In this document: positions 1 to 45,807 of the stretch, one piece after another
Position numbering within the stretch: the first letter of the stretch is position 1
Layout: each line of letters starts with the position of its first letter
Translations under genes and position numbers: made by a program
Assembly: GCF_965641715.1 (NCBI RefSeq)
Contig: NZ_OZ282453.1
Strand: one strand, 5' to 3'
Source of the DNA: Escherichia coli
GTDB lineage: Bacteria; Pseudomonadota; Gammaproteobacteria; Enterobacterales; Enterobacteriaceae
Length of the DNA stretch: 64,000 nucleotides
Notes under the pieces: model-generated
What the model saw: only the letters and a program-made list of their open reading frames with translations
What the model was told of the DNA's origin: nothing
Databases searched by the model: none

Positions 1-596
1 TAGGGGTAACCTGTAGGGATGTACCACCCACCTTAAAATAAAGGGGTAAAATCGCTTAGAATGCGTTACAGAGCGTCTGAGAAGCCATATTCACAGATTT
101 TACTAAAACCTCAGACTTCTAAGTGGTCTTTTTAACAGGAGGGTTCTTTCTCATGTATCACCCTCTCTTCCCGCCAAGTAAGCTACACAGACCTAGAGAA
201 TATGCCTTCACAGCATCTATATCAGGTCAGATTTAGAGGTCTTGATAGAATCTTCAAAGGTACTTGACAGATAACTATGAAGTTGTTAGGAAGGGGTGTT
301 TAACGGGGGAAGAGATACGATATAACCCGAAGGGGAGAGTATCATCTTAACAGTGATTGTAAGAGTAAAACTGAAAAGATACTTAACAGAACTACCAAGA
401 GGGAGCGATAAGACCAGAGGTAGTGACCTGTTAAACAGTTCGTTTCAAAGCTCTTAAGAGTCTGTTAAGTAAGGTCATGTGAACAATCATATCATTTTGT
501 CAATGCTTTTGTCTTTGACCTAAATCAATAAAATGTATCGTTTGATGTGCTTTTAAACAAAATAGTTAAAAATCTTTTTAGAGGGGCGCTTCGCTT

Positions 597-1265
597 GTGT
601 CACATCCAATAATCCATATCGGTCGTTATCATGGTGGTTCTGATGACTGGCGTACACCGTATCGTCTATTTCATAACCTGCATCGTGAGTATAGCTTCAG
701 TCTAGATGGCGCTGCAACTGAGCATGACGCATTGTTGCCACGGTTCACCGATGATATAAACCGTCAATCATGGGTTGGTGAACGGGTCTTCGTTAACCCG
801 CCGTTTAGCATGGCTGAACAGTTCCTCGCAAAAGCCCCTGAAGCTGATGTGTGTGTATGTCTGGTTCCGCACAGGTCAAAGACAACTTACTGGCTTCGGT
901 GTGTATATACAAACCCCTTCCTGCATGAGATTCGAACATTACACCGAGCGGTTAAATACCTTCCACCAGCAGGAAAGAGAGGTGTTGTAGCGCGTTCACC
1001 ATTTGCAAGCTGTGTTTTGATATACAGGAACACACCCCGTAAACCGAAGGTTGAAATTACCCAGACAATCTATTGTGGCGACACAATGCTTTTACTTGCC
1101 GTGGTTAATAGGGGTGGTTTACGTGGAAGACCTCATATACACGATGCACAGACGCTTGACAGGTTGATTAAAATGCATGACCAAGGGCAATCCGTCAAGA
1201 GTATCGCAGAATCGCTAAGAATGCCTCTAAGCACCACTTACAGGATTGTTCAAAGGTTGAGCTAA
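597..1265 (+). CDS. Phage Dam-family DNA N6-adenine methyltransferase with C-terminal HTH-like segment
   Basis: GTG start with GAGGGG RBS about 11 nt upstream; WRTP...GERVFVNPPFS motif typical of phage Dam-type MTases; C-terminal QSVKSIAESLRMPLSTTYRIVQRL resembles an HTH. Confidence 0.6.
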   Translation: MSHPIIHIGRYHGGSDDWRTPYRLFHNLHREYSFSLDGAATEHDALLPRFTDDINRQSWVGERVFVNPPFSMAEQFLAKAPEADVCVCLVPHRSKTTYWLRCVYTNPFLHEIRTLHRAVKYLPPAGKRGVVARSPFASCVLIYRNTPRKPKVEITQTIYCGDTMLLLAVVNRGGLRGRPHIHDAQTLDRLIKMHDQGQSVKSIAESLRMPLSTTYRIVQRLS

Positions 1266-1300
1266 AATTCTCATATAGAGCACTGATTATGAGAATGTTA

Positions 1301-1333
1301 AAGAGGCGATTTCCCCTTTCTGGGGTTATTCGC
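1301..1333 (+). repeat. About 30-nt element containing CCCCTTTCTGGGG hairpin followed by T-run (copy 1); possible MTase terminator
   Basis: aagaggcgatttcccctttctggggttattcgcttttt; a near copy occurs at 1521..1552. Confidence 0.4.
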
Positions 1334-1520
1334 TTTTTACTGGAAGGGTTATTTTACAGAGGTTTTTCAAACCCCCTCAATAATAAAAAACGAGCAACAA
1401 ACGAAGAGCGAGAAATAAAATATTGAGACTGGTGAACGGGGTCTGTAAAGATTGTTTAAGAAGTCGGTTTAGGGATTGGTAGATGATTCGGATGAAGCAT
1501 CCTCATAACAATACCAATTA

Positions 1521-1552
1521 GAAGGTGGCTCTCCCTTTCTGGGGATATCGCC
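1521..1552 (+). repeat. About 30-nt element containing CCCTTTCTGGGG hairpin (copy 2)
   Basis: gaaggtggctctccctttctggggatatcgcc, similar to 1301..1333. Confidence 0.4.
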
Positions 1553-1575
1553 TTGTATCTTAGTGAGTCCAGGAA

Positions 1576-1760
1576 GTTCTCTGTGAAGGGACTTGTCAGT
1601 CCTTTATATTGGCTAATTACAACTTATTGAAAAATAAGCATTTTTAGAAATCACTGTTAAGGTTACAGAGTTCTCTGTGAAGAGACTCGTCAGCTCTCTA
1701 TATTGGCTAATTACAACTCATTGAAAAATAAGCATTTTTAGAAATTGCTGTCAGAGAGGT
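1576..1760. repeat. Tandem direct repeat, 2 copies of about 94 bp (about 90 percent identical)
   Basis: gttctctgtgaag(g/a)gact(t/c)gtcag...tattggctaattacaac...ttgaaaaataagcatttttagaaat occurs at 1576 and again at 1670. Confidence 0.8.
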
Positions 1761-1833
1761 GAGTACTTGATAGATACAGCTTTCCGGTTCTGTCAAGATA
1801 TTTTTTAATAGATAGCACAAAATGCTAAAGATA

Positions 1834-1863
1834 CCCCTATACCATCACGTACAGGGGGTTTTG
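1834..1863 (+). terminator. Hairpin plus T-run (intrinsic terminator-like), between repeat region and minus-strand small genes
   Basis: cccctataccatcacgtacaggggg followed by ttttg. Confidence 0.35.
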
Positions 1864-1871
1864 AAGGGAGT

Positions 1872-2060
1872 TTAACGGGGTTCTGTGTGGTTATCTGTTC
1901 TGGTCCTGTCCTTGAGGTCAAATGACCATTCACGACCAAACAATCTGAACACGATAAACACCCGAACGATGAAATAGCGGAGCAGAAGACCTGCAATCAG
2001 CCCAACACCTCCACCAGCCCATACATCAGGTGACCCCAGCTCAGGAGGGAGATTTACCAT
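1872..2060 (-). CDS. Small predicted membrane protein (62 aa), unknown function
   Basis: Internal ATG with AGGAA RBS; single hydrophobic helix WAGGGVGLIAGLLLRYFIVRVFIVF; start overlaps the stop of the upstream 34-aa ORF (TAATG). Confidence 0.35.
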   Translation of the reverse strand: MVNLPPELGSPDVWAGGGVGLIAGLLLRYFIVRVFIVFRLFGREWSFDLKDRTRTDNHTEPR

Positions 2061-2164
2061 TAAATTTCCTGTGTGCAATGCAATACCATGTGACATACAT
2101 AGTTGATTCGGTTAGTTGGGCTTGTACCAACCCCTATCGAATAAACCTCATAGCCACGCTTCAT
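2060..2164 (-). CDS. Small ORF (34 aa) translationally coupled to the 62-aa membrane protein
   Basis: ATG preceded by GAGGGGGAA RBS immediately downstream of a minus-strand promoter; MKRGYEVYSIGVGTSPTNRINYVCHMVLHCTQEI. Confidence 0.25.
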   Translation of the reverse strand: MKRGYEVYSIGVGTSPTNRINYVCHMVLHCTQEI

Positions 2165-2186
2165 ATTTCCCCCTCTCTCATAAACC

Positions 2187-2216
2187 ATTATACCACAAAT
2201 GTTACGAAATTGTTAA
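2187..2216 (-). promoter_or_regulatory. Sigma70-like promoter (TTAACA, 18 nt spacer, TATAAT) on minus strand
   Basis: Reverse complement reads ttaacaatttcgtaacatttgtggtataat; drives the 34-aa and 62-aa ORFs. Confidence 0.45.
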
Positions 2217-2222
2217 AAATAC

Positions 2223-2251
2223 TTGACATTAGTCTTTGAAAATGCTAGTAT
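2223..2251 (+). promoter_or_regulatory. Sigma70-like promoter (TTGACA, 17 nt spacer, TAGTAT) on plus strand
   Basis: ttgacattagtctttgaaaatgctagtat, about 50 nt upstream of the 2300 operon; back to back with the minus-strand promoter. Confidence 0.45.
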
Positions 2252-2299
2252 TGTATATAAGTTAACAGAGAATTAACAATTATAAGGACTAGCTTATGA

Positions 2300-2857
2300 A
2301 TGAACGACAGAGAATTTAGAGCGATGCTTCAGGCATCGAGACAACGTAACAGATACAACTCCTACAGCTACACAGACACCCCCACCAGCTACGAACTACC
2401 CAAGCTCACCAGAGCAGAACGCAAAGGCCTTGATGAATTAATTCGTAGCATTACGCCACGAGATAGATTTATGCCAACCAGAAAGAGCACGAAGAACACT
2501 ATTAAAAATTATCTGGCTAACTTTGACAGCTACGAACAATTACCAAGTAAGCTTGATGATGTAATTATCGGATTCTGTAGAAGTGAAGGTCACCCGAAAT
2601 ACAACAAAAAACTATTTTATCTTCTAAAGAATCTTGACGAAATTAACTCAGCCACCGTGACAAATCATCTTCAGCGTCAAGCAACCAGACTTAGCCATGA
2701 ATTACCAAGCGATAAATATTGCGCTTTGCTTGCTGTAATGTGCGCAAAGTTAATTGGTGTTGTTGAGCATCATATTGCCGTTGGAAATATTGAGCCAATG
2801 GAAAACGAGCAACCAGATTTCGAGTTTGACCCGTATTTAGTTACAGAGGAATTTTAA
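2300..2857 (+). CDS. Hypothetical phage protein (185 aa)
   Basis: ORF with AAGGA RBS; first gene of a coupled operon; no recognisable motif. Confidence 0.5.
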   Translation: MNDREFRAMLQASRQRNRYNSYSYTDTPTSYELPKLTRAERKGLDELIRSITPRDRFMPTRKSTKNTIKNYLANFDSYEQLPSKLDDVIIGFCRSEGHPKYNKKLFYLLKNLDEINSATVTNHLQRQATRLSHELPSDKYCALLAVMCAKLIGVVEHHIAVGNIEPMENEQPDFEFDPYLVTEEF

Positions 2858-3136
2858 ATGAAGAAACACACTTTGACCCGTATTTCAGAAGAAGCCTTTC
2901 ACGAGCTTACCCGAATTAAACAGACAACTAACCTCCCTCATCAAACTGTTATGCAGCTTGCAATTGCTAAAGAGGTTACTGAGTCGGATTTACTGAAATA
3001 TCCAGTCTCTAAAGGTCGTAAGCACATCCGAATTACTCAGGACGCTTTAGATACTTTGAAGGCACTTAACAACTTTAAAATTGATATCGCCCGACTATTG
3101 AGTATTAAGATTCACAAGTTAGCAATGGGGGTTTAA
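2858..3136 (+). CDS. Hypothetical protein (92 aa), possible ribbon-helix-helix DNA-binding fold
   Basis: ATG directly after upstream stop; N-terminal HTLTRISEEAFHELTRIKQ...QTVMQLAIAKEV fits a strand-helix-helix pattern (inference). Confidence 0.4.
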   Translation: MKKHTLTRISEEAFHELTRIKQTTNLPHQTVMQLAIAKEVTESDLLKYPVSKGRKHIRITQDALDTLKALNNFKIDIARLLSIKIHKLAMGV

Positions 3137-3351
3137 TGCTATGCGTTACCTTTGAATACCACACGGATAAAATGATTCGCTACATCTCCGACCTCCTGAT
3201 TGAAGGAAACGGATTCGGTGACATCCATAACTCAAAAGATATTTTCATTAAAGCCATTGGCCCAAATGAAGTACTGAAAACAGCAGTTAAACCGGAATGG
3301 TTTGAGCGTCACAAGATTGAATTAGGTTATTGGGGTGAGGAGGTTTTATGA
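3136..3351 (+). CDS. Hypothetical protein (71 aa)
   Basis: TAATG overlap with upstream gene; no recognisable motif. Confidence 0.4.
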   Translation: MLCVTFEYHTDKMIRYISDLLIEGNGFGDIHNSKDIFIKAIGPNEVLKTAVKPEWFERHKIELGYWGEEVL

Positions 3352-3635
3352 AACCTTGGCATGAAGATGTTAGACGATATTTTACAGAACACCTTATCTA
3401 TGATGAATCCAGTGATTCCCTGTGCTGGTCTGATGGAGAGTCAGTCACGATAAACACCGACGACTACGGCAACAAAACATTTAATATAGGCCGATATACT
3501 TTCTACGTGAAATATGTTGTCTGGTTCCTTTATCATGGCTATCAATCCAACAAGCAAATTATCCATCGAAATGGTAACAGAGCCGATACCAGACCAAAAA
3601 ATCTTATGCAAGTCCGAGACTTTAAGAGAAATTAG
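3348..3635 (+). CDS. Small HNH-family endonuclease (95 aa)
   Basis: ATGA overlap with upstream gene, GAGGAGG RBS; motif IHRNGNRADTRPKNL resembles the HNH_3-type H-x-NGN-x-D-x-R-x-x-NL signature. Confidence 0.55.
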   Translation: MKPWHEDVRRYFTEHLIYDESSDSLCWSDGESVTINTDDYGNKTFNIGRYTFYVKYVVWFLYHGYQSNKQIIHRNGNRADTRPKNLMQVRDFKRN

Positions 3636-3642
3636 AAAAACA

Positions 3643-3766
3643 GCTTCTCAGACGCTCTCAATCGCATTCTAACGCAAAAAACTATCTTATTTTAGGGTGG
3701 GTAATACCACTGTACAGGCTACCCCTGAAAAAGACTGTTTAGCTCGTTACAGAGCGATTGAGGAGG
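3643..3766. promoter_or_regulatory. Inverted pair of operator-like 10-bp-periodic motifs flanking about 75 bp upstream of the 3792 gene
   Basis: 3643..3672 (minus orientation) reads ttagaatgcgattgagagcgtctgagaagc; 3745..3766 reads cgttacagagcgattgaggagg; both are related to 56..85. Confidence 0.4.
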
Positions 3767-3791
3767 TCTGGTAAAAAGGAGATTTTAAGAA

Positions 3792-4121
3792 ATGAGAGAA
3801 TTAAACTTCCCACTACAGATTTTTATTGATACCGACACCGCCATGATGATTCAGGCTTTCACTGATGTAGGTGTTAGCATTGACTTTGATAAGTTGTTAG
3901 AGTTAATGACTGATAATGCGGAAAGCATCTCTGACTTTATTCAGTCGGTGGAGTTTAACGAGCCTCGAATGATGCTACCAATTAAAGACAGCAACATGAA
4001 AAGATTGGTTATCGAGCAAACGAACAAATTCAGCGTTAGCCCTGAAAAATATCTCAAGGCGGCTATAGCAATTTTGTACGCTGACAATATTTTGGTGACG
4101 GATTCGAAGGTGGTGCATTAA
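3792..4121 (+). CDS. Hypothetical acidic protein (109 aa)
   Basis: AAGGAG RBS; no recognisable motif. Confidence 0.5.
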   Translation: MRELNFPLQIFIDTDTAMMIQAFTDVGVSIDFDKLLELMTDNAESISDFIQSVEFNEPRMMLPIKDSNMKRLVIEQTNKFSVSPEKYLKAAIAILYADNILVTDSKVVH

Positions 4122-4186
4122 TGGAATTGGTGATTATCTGTTTTGTATTGATTGGTATGATTGCAGGTGCATCTATTAAAGTATAA
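4121..4186 (+). CDS. Tiny hydrophobic peptide (21 aa, MELVIICFVLIGMIAGASIKV), translationally coupled
   Basis: ATG overlaps TAA of upstream gene (TAATG); entirely hydrophobic single-helix peptide. Confidence 0.25.
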   Translation: MELVIICFVLIGMIAGASIKV

Positions 4187-4211
4187 ATGTTACCAATCTG
4201 TTAAAAATCTG

Positions 4212-4240
4212 TTGACAAATAACCTTGAGCATGACATAAT
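4212..4240 (+). promoter_or_regulatory. Near-consensus sigma70 promoter (TTGACA, 17 nt spacer, CATAAT)
   Basis: ttgacaaataaccttgagcatgacataat. Confidence 0.55.
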
Positions 4241-4246
4241 TGTATA

Positions 4247-4503
4247 TATATGAGGATAGTCTTCTATCCGAAGTCTATAGGGAGAGCAATTCTCCTTGAA
4301 TTAAAATATTAATCATCTCTACATCAATGATAACTATATTCTGAGTTGGTGAGGTATGTTCTATACCGAACATTCTGAAAGGTGCAATGCTTTTCGTCAT
4401 GGCCTTTCAGTTTAGTCTGAGAGGCTATCTCAAAAAGTGCTTAATCATTCATTCATTGAATCCTTTACAGCTTTGCCCTAATCATGAGTTAGGGCGTTTC
4501 TTT
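4247..4503 (+). ncRNA. Candidate small RNA or structured leader (about 255 nt) from promoter to first intrinsic terminator
   Basis: No ORF of 60 aa or more in about 460 nt; several stable hairpins (4254..4269, 4356..4373); ends at terminator 4475..4503. Confidence 0.3.
4475..4503 (+). terminator. Intrinsic terminator (7-bp GC-containing stem plus T-run)
   Basis: gccctaatcatgagttagggc then gtttcttt. Confidence 0.5.
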
Positions 4504-4574
4504 AAGAGTTTTAAGCAGAGCTTTTAAAGAAAGTTTTTCCTGAAACTTCGTTAACGTTATAAAGCAAACCTTCA

Positions 4575-4610
4575 AAGCCCTTCACAGATTCAATGTTTAG
4601 GGCTTTTCTT
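4575..4610 (+). terminator. Second hairpin plus T-run (terminator-like)
   Basis: aagcccttcacagattcaatgtttagggctt then ttctt. Confidence 0.4.
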
Positions 4611-4707
4611 AATAGAGCATCTTTAATAAATCGTTAAGTCATCTTCTAAGTGTATTGGCGTTGAAGGTGCTCTGTTAAGAAATAAACCACACTTAGAGGA
4701 AGTTATA

Positions 4708-5418
4708 ATGACAAACGATTTATATATTAACGGTAAAAAGGTTGATAGCTTCGGTGACTGGTCGCCACAGACTGAACATCCAGCTATCACTATTCAGCGC
4801 AAAGAACACGATGAAAGAATTGCACTTGAGCAAGAAATCCGAATGTCACCAAAGGTAATTTCCTTTGTGGCTCCTGAGCCTCAAGATATGCCGGATATTT
4901 GCAAAACTGAAGCATTGCTTGAGCTTGAAAAGAAATTTTACCCAGCTTTAAAAGCACAGCGTCTTAAACTAGATGACGCTTACAGTAAAGTTACCCTGAT
5001 GCAATCAGCTATTGAGCCATCAGAATTTGAGATTCAGGATGAATTGTCACAGAAACCATTTGTCTATTACCAATATGAAGACAATGATGGTTTTGGTACT
5101 TTTCCTGAGAATATCCCAGACGTGATTAATAATCCGATGGATGGATATCGAATTGTGAAGATGGTTAAGGCATCAAGAGGTGCTGGTCAGTTTATTTACA
5201 TGACTAATAAGAGCGATGAAGAACTCGCTGAACTTGCTAGACAGAACATCTTGGCATCACGTAACAAGCAGCTTGATAATGTTAAGTTGTATCTCTCAAG
5301 AGAGCTTCAGGCTATGAAAGACCTTGTGAAAGAATATGAAGATGCTAAGAAGATTGCTATGCAAGCCGATATTGAGCAGTTAGTGAAGATTTCTAGCAAA
5401 TATGCAAAGGCTATTTAA
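4708..5418 (+). CDS. Hypothetical phage protein (236 aa), charged with coiled-coil-like C-terminus
   Basis: GAGGAAG RBS; first gene of a co-directional module ending at 8794. Confidence 0.5.
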   Translation: MTNDLYINGKKVDSFGDWSPQTEHPAITIQRKEHDERIALEQEIRMSPKVISFVAPEPQDMPDICKTEALLELEKKFYPALKAQRLKLDDAYSKVTLMQSAIEPSEFEIQDELSQKPFVYYQYEDNDGFGTFPENIPDVINNPMDGYRIVKMVKASRGAGQFIYMTNKSDEELAELARQNILASRNKQLDNVKLYLSRELQAMKDLVKEYEDAKKIAMQADIEQLVKISSKYAKAI

Positions 5419-5437
5419 TTATGATGTGAGGTGAAGA

Positions 5438-5653
5438 ATGATTGATTTAACTGAACGCTATGAAGTTATTAAGTCTGTTTGTGAGAACTTAAAGCTTCAG
5501 ACTAAACCAAAGCTACGAATTAAAAATCAGCATCAAGTTATCACCTCACACAAACCAAAGGTTAGAAGGATTCCTTCATGGTGTATTGACCGTGTTCCTG
5601 CTGATGCTCAATTAATTGGTGAGTCTGGTTCTTACACTTATATCCTTCATTAA
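5438..5653 (+). CDS. Hypothetical phage protein (71 aa)
   Basis: GAGGTGAAG RBS; immediately upstream of the tape-measure-like gene. Confidence 0.45.
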   Translation: MIDLTERYEVIKSVCENLKLQTKPKLRIKNQHQVITSHKPKVRRIPSWCIDRVPADAQLIGESGSYTYILH

Positions 5654-5734
5654 AAATTACAAAGGGGAGAGATTAGCCTTAATTGGTTAGTCTTTCCCTT
5701 TTTCGTATATGAACACTTAAGAGGTGAAACATGA

Positions 5735-45719: not shown

Positions 45720-45807
45720 GGAAGTGTGGCCGAGCGGTTGAAGGCACCGGTCTTGAAAACCGGCGACCCGAAAGGGTTCCAGAGTTCGAATCTCTGCGCT
45801 TCCGCCA
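45720..45807 (+). tRNA. serT: tRNA-Ser (anticodon UGA)
   Basis: ggaagtgtggccgagcggttgaaggcaccggtcttgaaaaccggcgacccgaaagggttccagagttcgaatctctgcgcttccgcca; long variable arm, CCA end. Confidence 0.9.

What the first reader, a model, noticed from the sequence alone, without database searches (positions are those of the whole stretch)
4212..4707. Near-consensus promoter driving about 460 nt without a sizeable ORF; candidate phage small RNA
A TTGACA-17-CATAAT promoter is followed by a structured region with several hairpins and two intrinsic terminators (4475..4503 and 4575..4610) before the next gene at 4708. Only a 19-aa ORF with RBS (4356..4415) is present. A regulatory RNA (immunity or antisense) or an attenuated leader is more likely than a protein gene.
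Basis: seen in the sequence. Interest (0 to 1): 0.6.

Follow-up and report, generated by a model that had tools for sequence, protein, structure and literature searches.

The report
Terminator-gated RNA leader of phage-like island
The region is a real, conserved non-coding RNA leader (a strong promoter, covarying hairpins, stop signals and a masked ribosome site) that most likely keeps the tail-protein genes of a small, apparently undescribed E. coli mobile island switched off until some signal arrives; a second role as a free small RNA is possible but unproven.

Summary
TTGACA-17-(TG)CATAAT at 4212-4240 is one of only two promoter matches of at least 11/12 in the 64-kb window. Two intrinsic terminators follow (4474-4503, 4574-4612). 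No ORF is conserved: the 19-aa ORF starts inside a 28-nt insert found in 22 of 79 distinct leaders.

The context is not a prophage. It is an ~11-kb integrative island, present in at least 558 of 5426 complete E. coli genomes, that carries tape-measure and Dit-like genes related to virulent Felix O1-like phages.

In five diverged lineages the island's best promoter sits at this same place. It is followed by a 280-480 nt leader with one to five terminator-like hairpins and an anti-Shine-Dalgarno element. A third terminator precedes the tape-measure gene.

A two-hairpin core (4375-4435) shows strong covariation: 96% paired, 8 of 19 pairs changed on both sides. It matches no Rfam family.

Best reading: a terminator-gated, translation-locked cis-leader, presumably opened by an unidentified antiterminator, with ~255 and ~365 nt terminated RNAs as default products.

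A lead for trans action: the invariant H4 loop 9-mer is complementary to the 5' UTR of a divergent small membrane-protein mRNA in 47 of 69 islands. This is unproven.

The parts
4188..4215 (+). Three direct TGTTAC / TGTTAA / TGTTGA repeats at 11-bp spacing; the last overlaps the -35. Candidate operator.
   Evidence: Read from the sequence. The same repeat lies upstream of promoter P1 (2187-2220 resembles 4175-4208). It is conserved in lineages A, B, C and E. TGTTA(A/G) arrays also fill a 1.7-kb non-coding region of Felixounavirus VpaE1.
4212..4240 (+). Promoter P2: TTGACA, 17-nt spacer with TG, CATAAT. Predicted start near 4247.
   Evidence: It occupies the same syntenic position, and is the best or joint-best promoter match in the scanned stretch, in L009, L013 and L015, and it was found in the 18 leaders examined (16 distinct). 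The 109 loci were retrieved with this promoter as the search pattern, so they say nothing about its conservation.
4247..4275 (+). Optional mobile mini-hairpin insert (GAGGATAGTCTTCTATCCGAAGTC).
   Evidence: Absent from WCHEC020031. Present in 18 of 79 distinct leaders. A further copy lies elsewhere in L003.
4280..4295 (+). Hairpin H1 (GGGAGAGCAAUUCUCC) near the 5' end of the RNA.
   Evidence: The stem is kept with sequence changes, and the loop is flipped in some relatives.
4349..4376 (+).
   Evidence: present in 22 of 79 leaders.
4375..4435 (+). Conserved core. H4 spans 4377-4395 (loop GCAAU; invariant 9-mer GUGCAAUGC at 4382-4390). H5 spans 4399-4428.
   Evidence: Covariance model R1 scores 86 bits here and finds one copy per island, on the leader strand only. 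Covariation: 96.3% of cells paired, 8 of 19 pairs changed on both sides, 0 of 500 shuffles reach this, slid controls 42-55%. The 9-mer is present in 79 of 79 distinct leaders. Folds at -23.6 kcal/mol, z -4.8.
4474..4503 (+). Intrinsic terminator T1.
   Evidence: A T1-type hairpin is present in 57 of 79 distinct leaders.
4497..4532 (+). Hairpin S, formed by the T1 U-tract and downstream sequence in read-through RNA.
   Evidence: I3, 92% complementary. L047 carries a U-to-C change that turns a G-U pair into G-C.
4574..4612 (+). Intrinsic terminator T2, a paralogue of T1.
   Evidence: z -5.05; D1, I6. A T2-type hairpin is present in 76 of 79 distinct leaders.
4605..4682 (+). Long hairpin L (22-bp arms 4605-4626 and 4661-4682) that encloses the anti-SD in its loop.
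   Evidence: I1, 86% complementary; -36.7 kcal/mol, z -4.8. Equivalent long hairpins occur in the other 3'-end forms.
4631..4653 (+). Anti-Shine-Dalgarno stretch (UCUUCUAAGUGU).
   Evidence: (I2).
4689..4711 (+). Shine-Dalgarno sequence and AUG of the 236-aa gene, complementary to 4631-4653.
   Evidence: An anti-SD:SD duplex of -13 to -22 kcal/mol (controls about -10) is found in nearly all of 73 distinct 3' ends, in three covarying sequence forms. L015 has UUUCCUAUU / AAUAGGAAA.
4708..5418 (+). First gene of the controlled operon (236 aa). RefSeq calls it 'transposase', which nothing here supports.
   Evidence: No PHROG, NCBIfam or PADLOC family. Only 18 cluster representatives in 1.84 billion proteins.
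5661..5705 (+). Intrinsic terminator T3, inside the operon just before the tape-measure gene.
   Evidence: -29.3 kcal/mol, z -6.3. A terminator lies at the same position in L009, L013 and L015.
2187..2216 (-). Leftward promoter PL (TTAACA, 18-nt spacer with TG, TATAAT). It is the window's only other 11/12 promoter and lies back to back with P1 (2223-2251).
   Evidence: Conserved in L009 and L013.
2073..2081 (-). GCAUUGCAC in the PL 5' UTR, a perfect complement of the H4 9-mer, 2 nt upstream of the SD of a 62-aa membrane ORF (2060..1872).
   Evidence: Present at the syntenic place in 47 of 69 loci with enough upstream DNA (34 distinct contexts, lineages A, B and E). Duplex energy -13.2 kcal/mol.

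Best explanation
The region is the promoter and 5' leader RNA of the island's tail-module operon (236-aa protein, 71-aa protein, tape-measure homologue, Dit-like protein).

Proposed mechanism. P2 is a near-consensus sigma-70 promoter that fires readily. It may itself be occluded by a protein bound to the TGTTA repeats that overlap its -35. By default RNA polymerase stops at T1 or T2, giving RNAs of about 255 and 365 nt. Polymerase that escapes both meets T3 before the tape-measure gene. In full-length RNA the ribosome-binding site of the first gene is paired with an upstream anti-SD held in the loop of a long hairpin. Expression therefore needs read-through of several terminators, which implies processive antitermination, plus unmasking of the RBS. 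The conserved H4-H5 double hairpin upstream of the first terminator is the likeliest recognition or loading site for the factor that does this. That factor could be encoded by the island's P1 operon or by an infecting Felix O1-like phage.

Shown: the promoter, the terminators, hairpin covariation, SD complementarity, and conservation of the arrangement across lineages.

Inferred: that termination is efficient, that an antiterminator exists, what H4-H5 does, and what the trigger is.
For: The arrangement is tied to the operon rather than to the sequence. In lineages whose 236-aa proteins are only about 22-40% identical in the alignment (25-41% by phmmer), the best promoter lies just after a tiny hydrophobic ORF and 310-500 nt before the homologous gene, with one to four terminators between them. 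L013 and L015 share no leader sequence with the window.

All 79 distinct leaders from genomes and metagenomes are 281-480 nt long and carry at least one GCCC...GGGC hairpin with a U-tract.

No other promoter-like site lies between T2 and 4708 on the + strand.

T3 is conserved in position in four lineages.

Anti-SD:SD pairing is found in nearly all 73 distinct 3' ends, in three covarying forms.

H4-H5 covaries and uses G-U pairs, so it is a + strand RNA structure.

T1 folds as an independent hairpin with no competing fold in the minimum-energy structures. This fits control by a factor rather than by an alternative RNA fold.
Against: No antiterminator was identified. None of the island proteins matches a Q, N, NusG/RfaH-like or any other regulator family.

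The terminator U-tracts are interrupted (UUUCUUU, UUUUCUU), so efficiency is unknown and read-through might be substantial.

H4-H5 is absent from lineages C and D, so it is not essential to the general arrangement.

No transcript data were available.

In the window, hairpin L is thermodynamically favoured and the SD is free in the nested minimum-energy fold. SD masking therefore needs a loop-to-tail pseudoknot or an alternative fold, which these tools cannot evaluate.
Confidence: 0.58

Rival explanations
1. The T1-terminated RNA (about 180-300 nt across islands) is itself the functional product: a trans-acting antisense small RNA. Its invariant H4 loop pairs with GCAUUGCAC beside the ribosome-binding site of the PL-driven 62-aa membrane-protein mRNA and represses it, in the manner of a type I antitoxin or immunity RNA. 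Alternatively, the PL RNA acts on the leader. This is compatible with the leader role; the question is which function is primary.
For: The H4 9-mer is invariant in 79 of 79 leaders. Its perfect complement lies in a single-stranded stretch of the PL 5' UTR, 2 nt before the SD in the window and 3 nt before it in lineage B, and is conserved in 34 distinct contexts whose flanks vary by indels. The two RNAs come from the only two 11/12 promoters in 64 kb. Duplex energy is -13.2 kcal/mol. By my estimate, the chance of a 9-mer match between the 61-nt core and a 150-nt UTR is about 0.03. The RNA also has the usual small-RNA layout: 5' hairpins, an A/U-rich linker and a terminator.
Against: Only 9 nt are complementary, and the match was found after the fact. 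22 of 69 islands with enough upstream DNA lack the target although H4 stays invariant. In 'type ii' islands about 100 nt separate the target from the SD. Both partners are invariant, so no compensatory change can be scored, and L139 has an uncompensated G-to-A change in the target. Lineages C and D lack H4-H5 and show only chance-level complementarity. No outlier duplex was found with any island start site or with the phage.
Confidence: 0.22
2. H4-H5 is a self-acting antiterminator RNA of the HK022 put type. It would bind the transcribing polymerase in cis and let P2-initiated transcripts pass T1, T2 and T3 without a protein factor. Regulation would then lie at P2, through the TGTTA repeats.
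For: Two adjacent conserved hairpins lie between a strong promoter and a series of terminators. Iteron-like repeats overlap the -35 and could provide promoter-level control.
Against: There is no sequence or model-based link to put. H4-H5 lies about 130 nt from the start, with variable inserts in between. Lineages C and D have terminators but no H4-H5. The additional SD masking argues that transcripts are not meant to be expressed by default.
Confidence: 0.1
3. The region acts as DNA rather than RNA, for example as a replication origin, a packaging site or a recombination site of the island.
For: It is non-coding, A+T-rich (37% G+C) and rich in repeats and palindromes. TGTTA repeats are shared with a non-coding region of the related phage.
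Against: The hairpins use many G-U pairs, which would be C-A on the other strand. The model finds the motif on one strand only (60-86 bits against 15-34 bits on the reverse strand). The U-tracts follow the stems only on the + strand. The structure z-score is stronger on the + strand. The SD pairing makes sense only as RNA.
Confidence: 0.05
4. A small protein or leader peptide is encoded here: the 19-aa ORF, or the ORF that starts at the AUG in the H4 loop.
For: AAGG lies 4-5 nt before the invariant AUG in GCAAUGC, and all versions begin MLF.
Against: The ORF from that AUG ranges from 5 to 58 aa, with frameshifts between relatives. The 19-aa ORF start is present in only 22 of 79 leaders and lies 1 nt from its 'RBS'. 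H4 covaries as a hairpin.
Confidence: 0.03

Closest known systems
Lambdoid late leader: PR' promoter, 6S RNA, tR' terminator, read through by Q. In Stx phages the terminated transcript is the small RNA StxS. (From my own knowledge of the literature, not checked with the tools.)
   Same: A strong, essentially constitutive promoter lies upstream of structural genes. The default product is a short terminated RNA. Expression requires processive antitermination. The terminated RNA may have a second, trans-acting role.
   Different: No Q-like protein or any identifiable antiterminator. The leader is two to three times longer, with two or three tandem terminators plus one inside the operon. The RBS is masked as well. 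The element is an 11-kb island related to a virulent myovirus, not a lambdoid prophage.
Satellite P4 immunity and the P1/P7/N15 C4-type RNAs (Rfam C4 antisense RNA family). (From my own knowledge.)
   Same: A mobile element related to a helper phage, with a constitutive promoter. A leader-derived RNA controls downstream genes by premature termination or RBS blocking through short RNA-RNA pairing.
   Different: No hit to any Rfam family. No internal seqA/seqC-type repeats complementary to a processed RNA. The only candidate pairing is 9 nt, with a transcript from a divergent promoter 2.1 kb away.
HK022 put RNA. (From my own knowledge.)
   Same: A double hairpin lies between a promoter and its terminators.
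   Different: No detectable similarity. The position relative to the start is variable, and the motif is not present in all lineages.
Lambda N leader, where an RNase III hairpin masks the N ribosome-binding site. (From my own knowledge.)
   Same: A long (22-24 bp) hairpin lies just upstream of an SD that is paired in the unprocessed RNA. Cleavage could unmask translation.
   Different: RNase III cleavage is purely conjectural here, and there is no nut-like boxA/boxB.
Type I toxin-antitoxin pairs such as tisB/istR-1, shoB/ohsC and zor/orz. (From my own knowledge.)
   Same: A small single-pass membrane protein is made from a strong promoter with a long 5' UTR. A separately transcribed RNA is complementary next to its SD.
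   Different: Complementarity is 9 nt rather than about 18-23 nt. The RNA is encoded 2.1 kb away as the leader of another operon. Toxicity is unknown.

Membership tests
Any Rfam 15 family, including C4 antisense RNA / P4 CI | Score at or above the family's gathering threshold. | tested here: not met
   No hit in 4050-4760 at gathering thresholds. The permissive scan gave only chance-level hits to miRNA and snoRNA families, E at least 0.25 and 13-25 bits against thresholds of 59-230.
P4-type RNA immunity | A leader contains an internal sequence (seqB) flanked by two copies of its complement (seqA, seqC). | tested here: not met
   The repeats within 4240-4720 are the terminator paralogues, the hairpin arms and the anti-SD. 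There is no A-B-C arrangement.
Q-type late antitermination unit | A strong promoter followed by terminator(s) upstream of structural genes, giving a short default RNA. | tested here: met
Q-type late antitermination unit | A Q-family antiterminator gene in the element. | tested here: not met
   No PHROG, NCBIfam or PADLOC family of that kind for any island ORF. Distant homologues cannot be excluded.
Q-type late antitermination unit | A Q-binding element in the promoter and a sigma-dependent promoter-proximal pause. | not testable with these tools
   A conserved TATGG/TATATG lies around the predicted start. That is not a test.
Attenuator or riboswitch with mutually exclusive terminator and antiterminator folds | An upstream segment able to pair with the 5' arm of the terminator. 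| tested here: inconclusive
   T1 and T2 form as independent hairpins in the minimum-energy and centroid folds, with no competing helix. The only complements of the T2 5' arm lie downstream of it (I4). Suboptimal or co-transcriptional folds were not explored.
Conserved structured RNA (generic) | Base pairs maintained through compensatory changes across homologues, beyond controls. | tested here: met
   H4-H5: 96.3% paired, 8 of 19 pairs changed on both sides, 0 of 500 shuffles reach this, slid controls 42-55%. The plain MAFFT alignment gave 92.8% paired. Caveat: alignment A8 is fitted to the model.
Translational operator that masks the SD | An upstream sequence complementary to the SD/AUG, kept despite sequence change. 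| tested here: met
   Three different anti-SD:SD sequence pairs, plus a fourth in L015. z is -2 to -6 against shuffled upstream sequence.
Type I toxin-antitoxin | A small hydrophobic protein, plus an RNA complementary to its translation-initiation region. | tested here: inconclusive
   A 62-aa ORF with one hydrophobic segment. The complement next to the SD is only 9 nt and is present in 47 of 69 islands. Toxicity is not testable here.
Phage satellite (PICI, P4-like, PLE, PICMI) | An integrase, plus excision as a circle. | tested here: met
   A large serine recombinase at 8814-10457. A circular junction in L011.
Phage satellite (PICI, P4-like, PLE, PICMI) | Its own replication, packaging or capsid-redirection genes, and helper-dependent transfer. 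| tested here: not met
   No primase, replication, terminase-small-subunit or capsid family was found. The island instead carries tape-measure and Dit homologues. Helper dependence is not testable here.

The most novel reading that the evidence does not exclude
The leader and the divergent PL RNA would form a two-RNA switch in a previously undescribed class of about 11-kb excising islands that parasitise or defend against virulent Felix O1-like phages. In uninfected cells, tandem terminators, SD masking and H4-loop pairing would keep both a small membrane protein and a set of substitute tail proteins silent. These tail proteins are a tape-measure homologue whose ends match the phage's at the DNA level, and a Dit gene 90.6% identical in DNA to the phage's. 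Infection would supply the factor that opens the leader, releasing proteins that enter or poison the phage's tail assembly.
Probability: 0.15. Interest if true: 0.85.

Novelty: new variant of a known kind. Interest (0 to 1): 0.62.

Why it matters
About one in ten complete E. coli genomes carries this island (at least 558 of 5426), and it also occurs in Salmonella and E. albertii. Its only recognisable cargo is a pair of tail genes shared with virulent Felix O1-like phages, which are widely used for Salmonella and E. coli typing and biocontrol.

The leader appears to be the control point for that cargo. It has a covariation-supported RNA motif with no known family, stacked terminators and a masked ribosome site. 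Learning what opens it would show how a chromosomal element senses a virulent phage. It would also show whether the island is a satellite, a defence system or both.

The region is a well-defined test case for factor-dependent antitermination outside lambdoid phages. It is also a candidate dual-function leader and small RNA.

Tried and rejected
DNA similarity. The region found nothing in the phage collection or the plasmid collection.

Rfam. No family at gathering or permissive thresholds.

Wider locus retrieval. The alignment of the 236-aa family was too diverged to seed a locus search. A scan of species-representative genomes with the Dit alignment found nothing.

Small ORFs. Rejected: they are not conserved, they are frameshifted between relatives, and the 19-aa ORF has poor RBS spacing.

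P4-like internal repeats. None found.

Antisense to the phage. blastn of the whole island against the Felixounavirus VpaE1 genome matched only the tape-measure and Dit genes and one 20-mer, with nothing in the leader. Model R1 found no copy in the phage.

Antisense to island start sites. A duplex scan of the T1-terminated RNA against 14 translation-initiation regions gave no outlier (best z -1.5).

Complementarity in lineage C (L013). Leader against PL RNA gave only an 8-mer, which is chance level.

Protein families. No regulator or antiterminator assignment in PHROGs, NCBIfam or PADLOC.

Literature. Searches for the island, for Felix O1 satellites, for yecE elements and for the exact motif sequences found nothing relevant. 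The library is incomplete, so this is not proof that the island is undescribed.
Full report
OBSERVATION

TTGACA (4212-4217), a 17-nt spacer with an extended-minus-10 TG, and CATAAT (4235-4240) match 11 of 12 consensus positions. In my own scan of the whole 64-kb window only two sites reach 11/12: this one and a leftward site at 2216..2187. First-order Markov simulations of the 10.5-kb island give 0.25 such sites, or 0.03 with TG.

T1 (4474-4496, followed by UUUCUUU) was found by the scan. T2 (4574-4606) has a loop too long for the scan's rule but folds at -13.7 kcal/mol, z -5.05.

The 369-nt RNA from the predicted start (about 4247) to T2 folds at -109 kcal/mol, z -6.3. The reverse strand gives z -4.8.

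The 19-aa ORF (4356..4415) exists. However, its GAGG lies 1 nt from the ATG, and both lie in a 28-nt insert (4349-4376) absent from close relatives.

CONTEXT

The window is E. coli. The flank at 10450-14400 is 98-99% identical to the wrbA-yccJ-agp-yccE region.

Positions 1 to about 10,500 are a low-G+C (37-42%) island. On the + strand it encodes:
- a Dam-like methylase;
- a four-gene block with an HNH nuclease;
- a 109-aa protein;
- a 21-aa hydrophobic ORF (4121-4186);
- the region under study;
- a 236-aa protein;
- a 71-aa protein;
- a 709-aa tape-measure homologue (phrog_4036, 1.7e-82);
- a 264-aa protein (phrog_3721; Dit_like in relatives).

A large serine recombinase lies on the - strand.

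Relatives sit in yecE and other sites. The leader region matches 444 of 5426 complete E. coli genomes, and the whole island matches 558.

The Dit-like protein is 66-76% identical to the gene just downstream of the tape-measure gene in Felixounavirus, the Felix O1-like virulent myoviruses of about 86-90 kb. At the DNA level, 8036-8554 is 90.6% identical to phage VpaE1. The two ends of the tape-measure gene are also similar in DNA, while its middle is only 29% identical in protein. No other island protein has a homologue in the phage.

One sequencing-run contig (L011) is the circular junction of the L009 island, so the element excises as an 11.27-kb circle. Many metagenome contigs consist of the whole element and nothing else.

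I found no description of this island in the searchable literature.

CONSERVATION OF THE ARRANGEMENT

The 236-aa family is tiny: 18 representatives at 50% identity among 1.84 billion proteins. Even so, it defines five lineages. In the alignment the other lineages are about 22-40% identical to the window protein (25-41% by phmmer).

In L009, L013 and L015 the strongest or joint-strongest promoter match in the scanned part of the island lies immediately after a tiny hydrophobic ORF and 310-430 nt before the homologous gene. The sequences are TTGACA-17-CATAAT, CATAGT and a perfect TATAAT respectively. Several terminator-like hairpins lie in between, and another terminator lies between the short second gene and the tape-measure gene. 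The leaders of L013 and L015 share no sequence with the window.

A metagenome scan with the promoter as pattern brought the total to 109 loci and 84 distinct leaders. All 79 with a callable gene have 281-480 nt between start and AUG and carry at least one terminator-like hairpin. A T1-type hairpin is present in 57, a T2-type in 76 and both in 55. The one that fails the patterns has a variant hairpin followed by a U-run. The first terminator ends 180-300 nt from the start.

Leaders are mosaics of modules. Small hairpin cassettes come and go.

RNA STRUCTURE

The segment 4375-4435 forms two hairpins. H4 is GAAAGGU-GCAAU-GCUUUUC. H5 is AUGGCCUUUCAG...CUGAGAGGCUAU.

A covariance model built from 25 distinct sequences finds exactly one copy per island in lineages A, B and E and in L019, always on the leader strand (60-86 bits). 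The reverse strand gives only weak echoes. There is no copy in the Felixounavirus genome or in L013, and only a weak reverse-strand match, probably chance, in L015 (19.5 bits, E 0.027).

On 37 distinct sequences, 96.3% of cells are paired. Eight of 19 pairs show changes on both sides, for example AUGGCUUAUUUAG/CUAAAUAGGCCAU replacing AUGGCCUUUCAG/CUGAGAGGCUAU. None of 500 column shuffles reaches any of the five measures, and sliding the partners drops pairing to 42-55%. The alignment is fitted to the model, but the plain MAFFT alignment already gave 92.8% with the same controls. RNAalifold recovers both helices.

The many G-U pairs show that the constraint acts on + strand RNA.

The 9-mer GUGCAAUGC, which is the H4 loop plus its closing pairs, is invariant in all 79 leaders.

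3' DOMAIN

Arms 4605-4626 and 4661-4682 form a 22-bp hairpin, L (-36.7 kcal/mol, z -4.8). Its loop holds UCUUCUAAGUGU (within 4631-4653), which is complementary to ACACUUAGAGGA at the Shine-Dalgarno sequence of the 4708 gene (4689-4711).

Across 73 distinct 3' ends, an anti-SD:SD duplex of -13 to -22 kcal/mol is almost always the best interaction (shuffled controls about -10). It occurs in three different sequence forms...CUCUUCUAAG/CUUAGAAGAGG, CUUCACCUCU/AGAGGUGAA, and the window's form. L015 has a fourth, UUUCCUAUU/AAUAGGAAA.

In the window's nested minimum-energy fold, L forms and the SD is free. Masking would therefore require a loop-to-tail pseudoknot or a fold alternative to L, which I could not evaluate.

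INTERPRETATION

The feature that stays constant across lineages is an arrangement, not a sequence: a strong promoter, terminators, a masked RBS and then the same operon. This indicates a cis-acting leader.

Three terminators are spread over the leader and the operon, and no competing antiterminator fold appears for T1 or T2. This points to factor-dependent processive antitermination, as at lambda PR'-tR'. The terminated RNAs of about 255 and 365 nt would be the default products, and H4-H5 is the candidate recognition element.

The factor is unknown, because no island protein matches a regulator family.

The TGTTAC/TGTTAA/TGTTGA repeats, spaced 11 bp apart with the last overlapping the -35, are shared with promoter P1. 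They resemble dense TGTTA(A/G) arrays in a 1.7-kb non-coding region of the phage. P2 itself may therefore be controlled by an island or phage DNA-binding protein.

A LEAD FOR TRANS ACTION

The H4 9-mer has a perfect complement, GCAUUGCAC (2081..2073, - strand), in the 5' UTR of the transcript from PL, the window's other 11/12 promoter.

It lies 2 nt before the SD (AGGAAA) of a 62-aa ORF with one hydrophobic segment (AUG 2060, stop 1872). That ORF is followed by a terminator at 1857..1834.

The complement is present at the syntenic position in 47 of 69 loci with enough upstream DNA. These give 34 distinct contexts, including lineage B, and their flanks differ by indels in a U-run, which shows the stretch is non-coding.

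Several points weigh against it. The match is only 9 nt (-13.2 kcal/mol). I noticed it after the fact, and by my estimate the chance of such a match is about 0.03. Twenty-two islands lack it although H4 is unchanged. In some islands a roughly 100-nt insert separates it from the SD. Because both partners are invariant, no compensatory change can be scored.

I rate a primary trans-acting role at about 0.2. It is compatible with the leader role, as with StxS in Stx phages.

VERDICT

The region is a regulatory RNA and not a protein gene. It is best read as a terminator-gated, translation-locked leader of the tail-module operon of a small island related to Felix O1-like phages. It is not established as a stand-alone phage immunity RNA.

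The RNA motif belongs to no described family. The regulatory logic resembles known phage late leaders. I therefore classify it as a new variant of a known kind. The more surprising biology is likely to be the island it controls.

Noticed in passing
window 1-10500: The whole low-G+C segment is an integrative island of about 11 kb. Its only recognisable cargo is a tape-measure homologue and a Dit-like gene related to virulent Felix O1-like phages. 8036-8554 is 90.6% identical in DNA to phage VpaE1, and both ends of the tape-measure gene are similar to the phage's in DNA while the middle is diverged. It is present in at least 558 of 5426 complete E. coli genomes. I found no description of it in the searchable literature.
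   Followed up: partly
L011 against L009 (L011 1-2444 = L009 11254-13697; L011 2432-9969 = L009 2432-9969): A sequencing-run contig joins the island's right end to its left end with a 13-bp overlap. This is an excised 11.27-kb circle. Many metagenome contigs of 11-12 kb also consist of the element alone.
   Followed up: partly
window 1834-2216 (- strand): A leftward unit consisting of promoter PL (TTAACA, 18-nt spacer with TG, TATAAT; 2216..2187), a 5' UTR of about 120 nt, a 62-aa single-pass membrane ORF (2060..1872) and a terminator (1857..1834). Its UTR carries the complement of the leader's invariant H4 loop. Possibly toxin- or holin-like. No family was found.
   Followed up: partly
window 4121-4186 (+): A 21-aa hydrophobic ORF (MELVIICFVLIGMIAGASIKV) overlaps the stop of the 109-aa gene (TAATG). 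Equivalent tiny hydrophobic ORFs occupy the same position in L009, L013 and L015 although their sequences are unrelated.
   Followed up: partly
window 4247-4275, 4349-4376, about 2100-2150 (- strand); L148 14650-14675: A family of small mobile hairpin cassettes with the pattern GAGG...(T)ANCCGAA... is inserted at different places in different islands: after the transcript start, before H4, inside the T2 loop, and in the PL UTR. One is also present in the non-coding region of Felixounavirus VpaE1. Their nature is unknown.
   Followed up: partly
window 340-470, 1650, 2262-2275, 4188-4215, 4672-4678; L148 13900-15200: CTGTTAA/TTAACAG (TGTTA) motifs recur in the island and densely fill a 1.7-kb gene-free region of the phage. 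They look like iterons for a shared DNA-binding protein involved in replication origin, packaging or regulation.
   Followed up: partly
window 2-118 and 3610-3726: Two inverted-repeat blocks (40 nt at 80% and 63 nt at 73% complementary) flank the 3.6-kb segment that holds the methylase and the P1 operon. Related islands carry a small resolvase/invertase gene in this part. The segment may be invertible.
   Followed up: no
window 1575-1657 and 1669-1751: An 83-nt tandem direct repeat (90% identical) lies within a stretch of about 1 kb (1290-2300) that has no sizeable + strand ORF.
   Followed up: no
window 5661-5705: A strong intrinsic terminator (18-bp stem, -29.3 kcal/mol for the 86-nt segment 5650-5735, z -6.3) lies inside the operon just before the tape-measure gene. 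It is conserved in position in four lineages.
   Followed up: yes
window 4708-5418: RefSeq annotates this 236-aa protein as 'transposase' in many genomes. No Pfam, PHROG, NCBIfam or PADLOC family supports any function, so the name is probably propagated in error.
   Followed up: partly
window 26482-26904 (-), 15721-15799 (+), 45720-45807 (+): Rfam and ARAGORN hits in the chromosomal part of the window: a cspA-type thermoregulator leader (161 bits), naRNA4 (82.5 bits) and tRNA-Ser(UGA). All are ordinary E. coli features.
   Followed up: no
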